Positions 1 to 59,091 of a DNA stretch of 64,000 bases are shown one piece after another. The DNA is from Malacoraja senta (taxonomy: Eukaryota), in assembly GCA_038087875.1 (NCBI GenBank), contig CM075988.1, forward strand, positions 21,144,001 to 21,208,000, written 5' to 3'. Position numbers and translations under genes: made by a program. The notes under the pieces were generated by a model, which was not told where the DNA came from, ran no database searches, and saw only the letters and a program-made list of their open reading frames with translations. Every line of letters starts with the position of its first letter. Position 1 is the stretch's first letter.

Positions 1-59
1 ACCCCACCCCCACCATCACCTGGATGAAAGGCAGCCACACCTACCGGGATGGTGAACAG
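1..59 (+). CDS. NCAM1: NCAM1 exon, 3' part of Ig4 first half (partial at window edge): (D)PTPTITWMKGSHTYRDGEQ
   Basis: Frame from base 3 matches NCAM1 GDPIPSITW...EEK; ends CAG|GTAGGA, a phase-0 donor compatible with VASE and the next exon. Confidence 0.85.
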
Positions 60-18280: not shown

Positions 18281-18310
18281 GATTCATGGACTCGGCCGGT
18301 GAAACTAAAG
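18281..18310 (+). CDS. NCAM1: NCAM1 VASE alternative micro-exon, 30 nt: DSWTRPVKLK
   Basis: Acceptor tttctttcctccag, donor AAG|gtatgg, phase 0-0. SWTRP matches mammalian VASE ASWTRPEKQE and sits between the two Ig4 exons. Confidence 0.93.
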
Positions 18311-39373: not shown

Positions 39374-39524
39374 ACCATGGACGGGAGAATCGAGGTGCAC
39401 GGCTACGCAAGAGTTTCTTCACTGACGCTCAAGAACATAGAACACACCGACTCGGGGGAATATGTATGCAGAGCTAAAAACCCAGTGGGCCATGACACAA
39501 AGTTCATGTACCTCGAAGTTCAGT
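39374..39524 (+). CDS. NCAM1: NCAM1 exon, Ig4 second half: TMDGRIEVHGYARVSSLTLKNIEHTDSGEYVCRAKNPVGHDTKFMYLEVQ
   Basis: cag|ACC acceptor, T|gtaagt donor, 151 nt (phase 0-1); strong match to NCAM1 ARVSSLTLK...MYLEVQY. Confidence 0.96.
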
Positions 39525-44953: not shown

Positions 44954-45138
44954 ATGCCCCGAAGCTGCAGGGCACGGTGACCGTCTACACCTGGGAGGGG
45001 AACCCCGTGAATATTACCTGCGAGGTCCTGGCCCACCCCCTTGCGCTGGTAACCTGGTTGCGAGATGGCCAGCGGTTGCCGAGCTCCAACTACAGCAGCT
45101 TGAAGGTCTACAGCACCCGAACCACCAACTACCTTCAG
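44954..45138 (+). CDS. NCAM1: NCAM1 exon, Ig5 first part: YAPKLQGTVTVYTWEGNPVNITCEVLAHPLALVTWLRDGQRLPSSNYSSLKVYSTRTTNYLQ
   Basis: cag|AT acceptor, CAG|gtaagg donor, 185 nt (phase 1-0); APKLQG, YTWEGN and LPSSNYS are NCAM1-type rather than NCAM2-type. Confidence 0.97.
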
Positions 45139-46811: not shown

Positions 46812-46908
46812 GTCACACCCGACTCCGAAAACGACTTTGGTCCCTACAACTGCACAGCCAGCAACCTCGTCGGTGTGGAATCCAAGGAGTTTATTCTGGT
46901 GCAAGCTG
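46812..46908 (+). CDS. NCAM1: NCAM1 exon, Ig5 second part: VTPDSENDFGPYNCTASNLVGVESKEFILVQA
   Basis: ccccag|GTC acceptor, G|gtaagt donor, 97 nt (phase 0-1); near-identical to NCAM1 VTPDSENDFGNYNCTA...EFILVQA. Confidence 0.97.
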
Positions 46909-52940: not shown

Positions 52941-53756
52941 CTGGTTCTATGGTTGATGAAGCCTTGTTCTCTGCCCTACTGGCACCATTTTTCTCCAGAT
53001 TGCAGCACCTGCAGTCTCTCTTGTATATCCATTTTCACCCTCTGGCAGCTAAGAAAAGCTGCTAATCGATGAAGGGCTCTGGTAACATCAACTTCGTGTT
53101 TCCGGATTGAGAAAGTGTACTCTATTTGCAGCAGCAGATGAGAGAAAGGATGGATTGTGTGAGTCATGTTTTCGTACAAGTGTTAAAAATCAGAATGCGG
53201 AGGCGTGCTTAATTTGTAGAGGTTGCTTTGCCTGTTGTCGGGCAACTGAACCATCCTACCAACAACGAGAGAGCAGTCCTGAACGATTATCTACTTCATT
53301 TGAGACCCTCGGACCATCTTGGATCAGATTTTACTGGACTTTATCTTGCACTAAATGTTATTCTCTTTATCACGTGTCTGTACACTGTAAATTACTCGAT
53401 TGTAACCATGTATTGTCTTTCCGCTGACTGGCTAGCACGCACCAAAAGCTTTTCACTGTAGCTCGGTACATGTGGCAATAAACTAAACTCAAACTCAAGG
53501 CTCTTCTCAGCTGGATGGTTTGTATTTTAAATTGATTTTCAGTCTGGTGACCCCCGTGAGGGGGGGGGGGGGAGGGGGTGGACCGCCCACGTGTGGGGGA
53601 CGTAGAACAATGGACAACGGTACCCGGCGTGGAGGGACCGCCGTGAGGGGGGGAGAACACAGGGGGAACTGTGGTGGTGGGGGGGGGGGGAGGATTTGTA
53701 ACTTTGTAAGCACCCTTTATGGACAATAAAGTATTTAATCATAATCACTCTTCCAG

Positions 53757-53928
53757 AGACCCCATCTGCCCCGGCAGTCCTGGACACCGGCTCCCTACTC
53801 CTCCTCGGCTCAGATTGAGGTTGGGGAACCCGAGTCCACTGGTGGCGTGCCAGTCCTGAATTATTTCGTTGAGTGGAGAGCCCAGGATACTGATGGGTGG
53901 CAGAAGAAGAATGCAGATGCAAAGGAAG
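53757..53928 (+). CDS. NCAM1: NCAM1 exon, FN3-1 first half, with a +1 frameshift near 53786-53790. Corrected reading: ETPSAPAVLDT/APYSSSAQIEVGEPESTGGVPVLNYFVEWRAQDTDGWQKKNADAKE
   Basis: ttccag|AG acceptor, G|gtgagt donor, 172 nt. Homology to TPSSP...PYSS...EPEATGGVP...DAKE needs one base removed. Confidence 0.92.
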
Positions 53929-53957
53929 GTGAGTAAAGGCAGGCAACTGGGAGAGGG

Positions 53958-54800
53958 GATGCAGGCACAAGGAACTGCAGATGCTGGTTTACAACAAAAA
54001 AAAAAGACACAGAGTGCTGGAGTTACTCAATGGGCCAGGCAGCATCGCTGGAGATAGACGCAAAGCGCTGGAGTAGCTCAGCGGGCCAGGCAGCATCTCT
54101 GGAGAATAAGGATGGTTGACATTTTGGGTCGGGACCCTTCTTCAGTGGGAAAAGGGGTGAGGGGGGGGGGGGGTGAAGAGCTGGAGGCAAGAAAAGACAA
54201 GGACCCATCAGGGCTGGCCACAAATGACCTCAGGCAGGGTGGTGCCTGGTAGGCCCATATTTGACTAGGGAAGATGTGATCTCAAGAGGCCAACAGTGTG
54301 GAGAACTGTGGACGTACAACAACTAGGGTGGCGGGAGGGGGGAGGTTTAAGTAGAAGTTACTTATAATTAGAGAAGTCAATATTCATACCGCTGGGGTGT
54401 AGCTACCCAAACAAAATATGAGGTGCTGTTCCTCCAATTTGCGTGTGGCCTCACTCTGGCAGTGGAGGAGGCCCAGGACAGTTAGGTCAGTGTGGGAATG
54501 GGAAGGGGGAGTTTAAATGGTTGGTAGCCGGGAGACCCCACAGGCCTAGGTGGACCGGACGTAAGTGTCCAGCGAAACGGTACGCCGAGTCTACGCTTGG
54601 TCTTTCCGATGTAAGGCCCGAGCCTACCTCTAGAACACCAACGAGGTACACGTGAACCTCTGTCTCACCTGAAAGGAATGTCGGGGTCCCTGGATGGAAT
54701 CAGGGGAGGAGGTAGAAGGACAGGTGTTGCATCTCCTGCGGTTGCAGGGGGAAGTACCTGGGGCAGACAGCGGTTTGGGTGGGAAGGGATGAGTGAACCA
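53958..54800 (-). mobile_element. Penelope-like element 3' fragment: Cys-rich linker, GIY-YIG endonuclease and terminal unit
   Basis: Minus strand gives degraded PCNRRRCNTC...YIG.TKRRLG.RF...RKLEEQHLIF...GMNIDFSN, followed by the terminal CAGCATCTGCAGTTCC unit. Confidence 0.8.
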
Positions 54801-58956: not shown

Positions 58957-59091
58957 TTCTAGGTGCCGACAATATCATCACTATCAGCGGGCTGCTTCCC
59001 GAGACCACGTACAGCCTGCGGCTATTCGCTGTCAATGGCAAGGGGACCGGTGACGCCAGCCAGATCATTAAGTTCAAGACACAGCCTATTC
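58957..59091 (+). CDS. NCAM1: NCAM1 exon, FN3-1 second half: (V)LGADNIITISGLLPETTYSLRLFAVNGKGTGDASQIIKFKTQPI; alternative start at 58963
   Basis: Acceptors tgccag| (58956) and ttctag| (58962), C|gtaagt donor; matches NCAM1 GLKPETTY...NGKG...FKTQPV. Confidence 0.95.

What the first reader, a model, noticed from the sequence alone, without database searches (positions are those of the whole stretch)
53757..53928. +1 frameshift and premature TGA in an NCAM1 FN3-1 exon
Seen: entering in phase 1 the exon reads E-T-P-S-A-P-A-V-L-D-T-G-S-L-L-L-L-G-S-D-stop, with TGA at 53816-53818. Deleting one base in ACCGG (53786-53790) restores a 171-nt exon colinear with human NCAM1. The nearby AG at 53757-53758 does not rescue the frame. 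All other exons are intact. Inference: most likely a consensus indel error. If real, it is a null allele or an Ig1-5-only secreted product subject to NMD. Because flanking introns are phase 1-1, skipping the exon would keep frame but delete half of FN3-1.
Basis: seen in the sequence. Interest (0 to 1): 0.7.

Follow-up and report, generated by a model that had tools for sequence, protein, structure and literature searches.

The report
Assembly typo in skate NCAM1 exon
The assembled genome has one extra base that breaks a cell-adhesion gene (NCAM1) of a skate-like fish, but a contig built from sequencing reads that match this stretch everywhere else lacks that base, so it is most likely an assembly error and not a real mutation.

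Summary
The frameshift is in the assembly as described. The FN3-1 exon at 53757-53928 is 172 nt, 1 nt longer than the frame of skate and ray relatives allows, and TGA falls at 53816-53818. No nearby acceptor restores the frame (0 of 9). Run X1 has one 292-nt contig (depth 28.3) that matches 275 bases with no substitution and lacks only the G at 53789. Run X2, a relative, lacks it too. The same gene has a second 1-base break outside the window, a probable third, and exons not found beside N gaps. So 'all other exons are intact' holds only inside the window. Other coding genes of this assembly also show 1-2-base breaks (4-5 of 147 GPCR matches). Verdict: a consensus insertion error (about 0.93). 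A heterozygous null allele in the assembled animal is not excluded, because contigs drop variants and no raw reads were laid.

The parts
53757..53928 (+). NCAM1 exon for the first half of FN3-1; 172 nt in the assembly, 171 nt in the read contigs
53789..53790 (+). GG in the assembly where the read contigs have one G (the extra base)
   Evidence: table 4: left out in X1 (28.3 of 28.3) and X2 (25 of 25)
53816..53818 (+). TGA reached only in the shifted frame of the assembly
1..59 (+). 3' part of the first Ig4 exon, intact, donor GT at 60
18281..18310 (+). 30-nt VASE-type alternative microexon (DSWTRPVKLK), open, AG/GT bounded; the name VASE is recalled
   Evidence: best of 158 candidates, score 39 against 7 for the next
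39374..39524 (+). second Ig4 exon, intact
44954..45138 (+). first Ig5 exon, intact
46812..46908 (+). second Ig5 exon, intact, ends in phase 1
58957..59091 (+). second FN3-1 exon, intact, begins in phase 1

Best explanation
The extra G at 53789-53790 is most likely a one-base consensus insertion error in a poorly polished stretch of the assembly, and the animal's NCAM1 exon is likely the ordinary 171-nt open exon. Shown: the assembly has GG, and the read contigs of X1 and X2 have one G. Inferred: a long-read consensus doubled the G and polishing did not fix it; the gene would make normal membrane NCAM1.
For:: X1 record 8 (292 nt, depth 28.3) covers 53695-53970 with 0 other letters and 1 gap, at 53789. 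No laid contig covers that base (bin depth 25.5 = 0.9 x 28.3). X2, with 9 substitutions, has the same gap. X1 holds 21 of 23 sampled words, and about 3 are expected to overlap the site. All 5 of the 6 relative proteins printed over this stretch read through in frame, and the sixth (P0002) does so in the tblastn of that call. The assembly is faulty around this gene: a second 1-base break in a C run of the long cytoplasmic exon, a probable third at the start of the first Ig1 exon, three exons not found, and 7 scaffold gaps of about 200 N in the 600 kb beside the window. The gene shows no decay: 0 stops and 25 differences in 713 codons against P0001, and AG/GT ends at all 15 exons bounded. PMC8081667 (passages) names short indels from consensus calling as the commonest long-read assembly errors and shows a locally unpolished locus with frameshifts in TLK1.
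Against: Only contigs were laid, and they drop variants, so a heterozygous insertion could be hidden (header). It is not known whether X1 is the assembled individual; if it is not, it shows only that the break is not fixed in the species. X23 and X24 (same study) do not cover the exon. The assembly is not broken everywhere: 124 of 147 scored GPCR matches are near full length without a stop (my count). Two or more breaks in 3,020 nt are unlikely at the GPCR rate (P 0.005-0.008), so a local drop in quality must be assumed. The other two breaks and the local indel rate were not checked against reads.
Confidence: 0.93

Rival explanations
1. The assembled animal is heterozygous for a real 1-base insertion; the assembly took that haplotype and the X1 contig shows the other. 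The mutant mRNA would likely be degraded by nonsense-mediated decay or give a secreted Ig1-5 fragment without FN1.
For: The assembly carries the base. Contigs show presence, not absence. NCAM-null mice are viable according to PMC2806277 (passage), so a null allele could be tolerated.
Against: No contig of 4 runs laid shows the base at a 2% listing threshold. One allele would not explain the second and probable third 1-base breaks or the exons not found. A secreted ectodomain is dominant embryonic lethal in mice according to the same passage; that construct was the ectodomain, not Ig1-5 alone, so it bears only loosely.
Confidence: 0.045
2. NCAM1 is decaying into a pseudogene in this lineage or haplotype, and the several breaks and missing exons are real.
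For: Two sure and one probable break in 3,020 nt exceed the GPCR rate. Three exons were not found. FN3-1 has 5 lineage-specific amino-acid changes in 100 residues against 8 in 613 elsewhere (Fisher p 0.025, uncorrected and chosen after looking).
Against: The break in question is absent from X1, which matches the assembly at all other 275 bases. There are 0 in-frame stops in 713 codons, 96.5% identity to Leucoraja, canonical splice sites and an intact microexon. N gaps lie in the intervals where the FN3-2 exon and the last exon are expected.
Confidence: 0.015
3. The base is real and the frame is rescued by splicing, through another acceptor, a shifted upstream donor or exon skipping.
For: Phase 1-1 introns make skipping in-frame. 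Two upstream sites, 10 and 4 bases inside the Ig5 exon, would balance the frame arithmetically.
Against: 0 of 9 acceptors rescue the frame. The two donors read GTGCAA and GCTGGT, far from the consensus, beside a perfect GTAAGT. Skipping would remove the PSAP and GGVPV motifs, whose human counterparts PSSP and GGVPI are needed for polysialylation (PMC12682141, passages). The base itself is absent from read contigs.
Confidence: 0.01

Closest known systems
NCAM1 (ncam1a) of skates and rays: Leucoraja erinacea P0001, Rhinoraja longicauda P0002, Pristis pectinata P0003-P0006
   Same: Same exon and residue order; 93% identical to P0001 over the 46 residues after the break and 10 of 10 identical before it.
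   Different: The assembly has one extra base; the species has three real substitutions in the exon (K>N, L>F, L>Q) that X1 shares.
Residual consensus indel errors of long-read vertebrate assemblies (e.g. the unpolished TLK1 locus in PMC8081667)
   Same: A 1-base indel that doubles a neighbouring base, frameshifts a conserved gene and is absent from read-derived contigs, in a stretch with gaps and further breaks.
   Different: The sequencing and polishing method of this assembly is not known here, so the exact cause is inferred.
Engineered secreted NCAM allele of mouse (Rabinowitz 1996, seen only as cited in PMC2806277)
   Same: A stop before the membrane anchor would likewise give a soluble product.
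   Different: Here the stop would fall at the start of FN1 with many introns downstream, so decay of the mRNA is the expected outcome; and the stop is likely not real.

Membership tests
NCAM1 orthologue | Five Ig domains, two FN3 domains, membrane segment and cytoplasmic tail in order | tested here: met
   exons map in order over P0001 22-638 and 700-1091; the second half of FN3-2, the first and the last exon were not found in the assembly.
NCAM1 orthologue | Closer to NCAM1 than to NCAM2 | tested here: met
   NCAM1 chains E 6e-14 to 3e-11, NCAM2 2e-5; all 6 hits are named NCAM1a or NCAM1-like. No tree was built.
NCAM1 orthologue | Single locus (not a broken duplicate beside an intact copy) | tested here: met
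   1 DNA match in G000, the window itself; the assembly may be incomplete.
Assembly consensus indel error | Base absent from read-derived sequence that otherwise matches the assembly | tested here: met
   X1 contig, 0 substitutions, 1 gap at 53789.
Assembly consensus indel error | Base absent from raw reads of the very individual assembled, on both haplotypes | not testable with these tools
   All 24 listed runs are kept as contigs; the link between X1 and the assembly is unknown.
Assembly consensus indel error | Similar short indels elsewhere in the same assembly | tested here: met
   same gene; 4 clear and 1 probable among 20 GPCR loci cut out; none of these was checked against reads.
Unitary pseudogene | Disabling change fixed in the species | tested here: not met
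   X1 has the open exon.
Unitary pseudogene | Accumulated stops, lost splice sites, relaxed constraint | tested here: not met
   0 stops in 713 codons, canonical splice sites, 25 differences from P0001; only a weak excess of changes in FN3-1.
Heterozygous null allele | About half of the individual's reads carry the insertion | tested here: inconclusive
   One search shows no such contig, but contigs drop variants.

The most novel reading that the evidence does not exclude
The assembled skate carries a natural loss-of-function NCAM1 haplotype that truncates the protein at the Ig5-FN1 boundary, perhaps with the further breaks on the same haplotype. It would be a wild vertebrate allele that either silences NCAM1 or releases a non-polysialylated Ig1-5 fragment.
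Probability: 0.05. Interest if true: 0.4.

Novelty: not a real feature. Interest (0 to 1): 0.05.

Why it matters
As an artefact it matters only as a warning. NCAM1 in this assembly has several faults and should not be scored as lost or truncated, and frameshift findings from this stretch of the genome need a read check first. If the base were real, it would be a natural NCAM1 null or secreted allele in a cartilaginous fish. That would be of modest interest, since FN1 is required for polysialylation (PMC12682141) and a secreted ectodomain is lethal in mice (as cited in PMC2806277).

Tried and rejected
X23 had no contig over the exon and X24 nothing on the stretch; neither is evidence. Splice rescue was rejected. 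An intact second copy elsewhere in G000 was not found. The exon for P0001 640-694 was not found by tblastn in 264 kb, in 600 kb beside the window, or by a genome search with 4 of 4 candidates scored; this is 'not found with this query', not shown lost. The signal-peptide exon was not found in the 300 kb fetched further upstream or the 100 kb next to the window, so the phase of intron 1, and with it the probable third break, stays untested. The GPCR survey did not show a genome-wide flood of errors. It scored only the best 147 of 3,368 candidates, which favours intact genes. I cut out 20 loci: 19 of the 23 rows that were partial or had a stop, plus one other; the 4 left out had open frames of 348-429 aa. 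Some breaks found may be true pseudogenes. The earlier-findings look-up returned nothing. A paper search for ncam1, skate, pseudogene, elasmobranch found 71 papers with 3 of 4 terms; none of the 10 listed contains 'ncam1'. I saw the listing only, so absence from print is not shown.

Full report
The observation. The window holds part of an NCAM1 gene on the + strand. The exon at 53757-53928 has an AG acceptor and a GTGAGT donor and is 172 nt long. Read from its phase-1 entry it gives ETPSAPAVLDTGSLLLLGSD and stops at TGA 53816-53818. From 53790 another frame gives 46 residues that match NCAM1 FN3-1 structures (E 6e-14) and six skate and ray NCAM1 proteins (80-93% identity). tblastn with Leucoraja NCAM1a (P0001) switches frame between 53788 and 53790. 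P0001 aligns without a gap to the NCAM1 structure 3mtr over this exon. None of 9 nearby AG sites restores an open frame. The flanking introns are both phase 1. G000 has one DNA match for the exon, the window itself.

The read test. Of 24 listed runs, all kept as contigs, X1 holds 0.91 of the 23 sampled words; about 3 words are expected to overlap the site and 2 are missing. I laid 4 of the 24 runs on 53690-53970. X1 has one contig of 292 nt at depth 28.3 that covers 53695-53970 with no other letter and one gap: base 53789 is left out at depth 28.3 of 28.3. X2, another organism, has 9 substitutions and the same gap. No laid contig covers the extra base. X23 and X24 do not cover the exon. Two limits apply: contigs drop variants, so a heterozygous insertion is not excluded, and whether X1 is the assembled animal is unknown.

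The rest of the gene. I fetched 600 kb beside the window and mapped P0001 exon by exon. The long cytoplasmic exon switches frame in a C run at L007:7583-7590, one base short against P0001. The first Ig1 exon is 74 nt from its upstream AG and reads V-A-L in one frame and Q-V-D in the next, where relatives have A-A-L-Q-V-D. This is a probable third break; it is untested because the signal-peptide exon was not found. The second half of FN3-2 and the last exon were not found either, and 200-N gaps lie in both intervals. Otherwise the gene looks constrained: 0 stops and 25 differences in 713 codons against P0001, AG/GT ends at the 15 exons bounded, and an intact 30-nt microexon at 18281-18310. These further faults were not checked against reads.

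Base rate. A PF00001 search scored 147 of 3,368 candidates; by my count 124 are near full length without a stop. Of 20 loci cut out (19 of the 23 partial or stop-bearing rows, plus one other), 4 show clear 1-2-base frame switches (L054, L060, L064, L066) and one a probable switch (L057). That is at least one break per 24-29 kb of coding sequence, some perhaps true pseudogenes. At that rate two or more breaks in the 3,020 nt mapped for NCAM1 have P 0.005-0.008. So this locus is worse than average, which fits either a locally unpolished stretch or a decaying gene. The open exon in X1 and the lack of stops favour the first. PMC8081667 (passages) names short indels from consensus calling as the commonest errors of long-read assemblies and shows a locally unpolished locus with frameshifts in TLK1.

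Mechanism and rivals. Most likely (0.93) a long-read consensus doubled a G and polishing missed it; the gene would encode normal NCAM1. A heterozygous insertion in the assembled animal (0.045) would likely trigger nonsense-mediated decay, since many introns lie downstream (established knowledge). If translated it would give Ig1-5 without FN1, which is not polysialylated according to PMC12682141 (passages). PMC2806277 (passages) says NCAM-null mice are viable while a secreted ectodomain is dominant lethal. Pseudogenisation (0.015) has a weak point in its favour: 5 lineage-specific changes in 100 FN3-1 residues against 8 in 613 elsewhere (p 0.025, uncorrected). Splice rescue (0.01) has no good site. 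No supplements were consulted; none bears on the verdict.

Verdict. A real error in the assembly text, not a biological feature. Interest 0.05.

Noticed in passing
L007:7583-7590 (G000:C12, about 57 kb past the window end): Second frame break in NCAM1: the long cytoplasmic exon is one base short in a C run against P0001. Not checked against reads.
   Followed up: partly
L014:5354-5363: Probable third 1-base break at the start of the first Ig1 exon (74 nt; V-A-L and Q-V-D lie in different frames); depends on the phase of intron 1, which was not seen.
   Followed up: partly
between L003:7816 and L007:3868; gap at L004:8378-8577: The exon for the second half of FN3-2 (P0001 640-694) was not found in the assembly; a 200-N gap lies in the interval. 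The first and last coding exons were not found either.
   Followed up: partly
window 18281-18310: Intact 30-nt VASE-type microexon inside the 39-kb Ig4 intron.
   Followed up: yes
window 53859-53903 and 58959-59090: Species-specific amino-acid changes in FN3-1 (K>N, L>F, L>Q, S>F, I>T); the first three are also in X1, so real. Mild excess over the rest of the protein.
   Followed up: partly
L054:1725-1728, L066:1187-1189, L060, L064:1716-1719: GPCR genes in G000 with 1-2-base frame switches; L054 and L066 are 96-99% identical in protein to intact paralogues on the same contig. Errors or young pseudogenes.
   Followed up: partly
G000 C2820/C3357, C575/C4058, C3/C925, C85/C3039, C15:9507157/9578113: Pairs of GPCR matches with identical scores and lengths on different contigs or places, suggesting retained haplotype duplicates in the assembly.
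   Followed up: no
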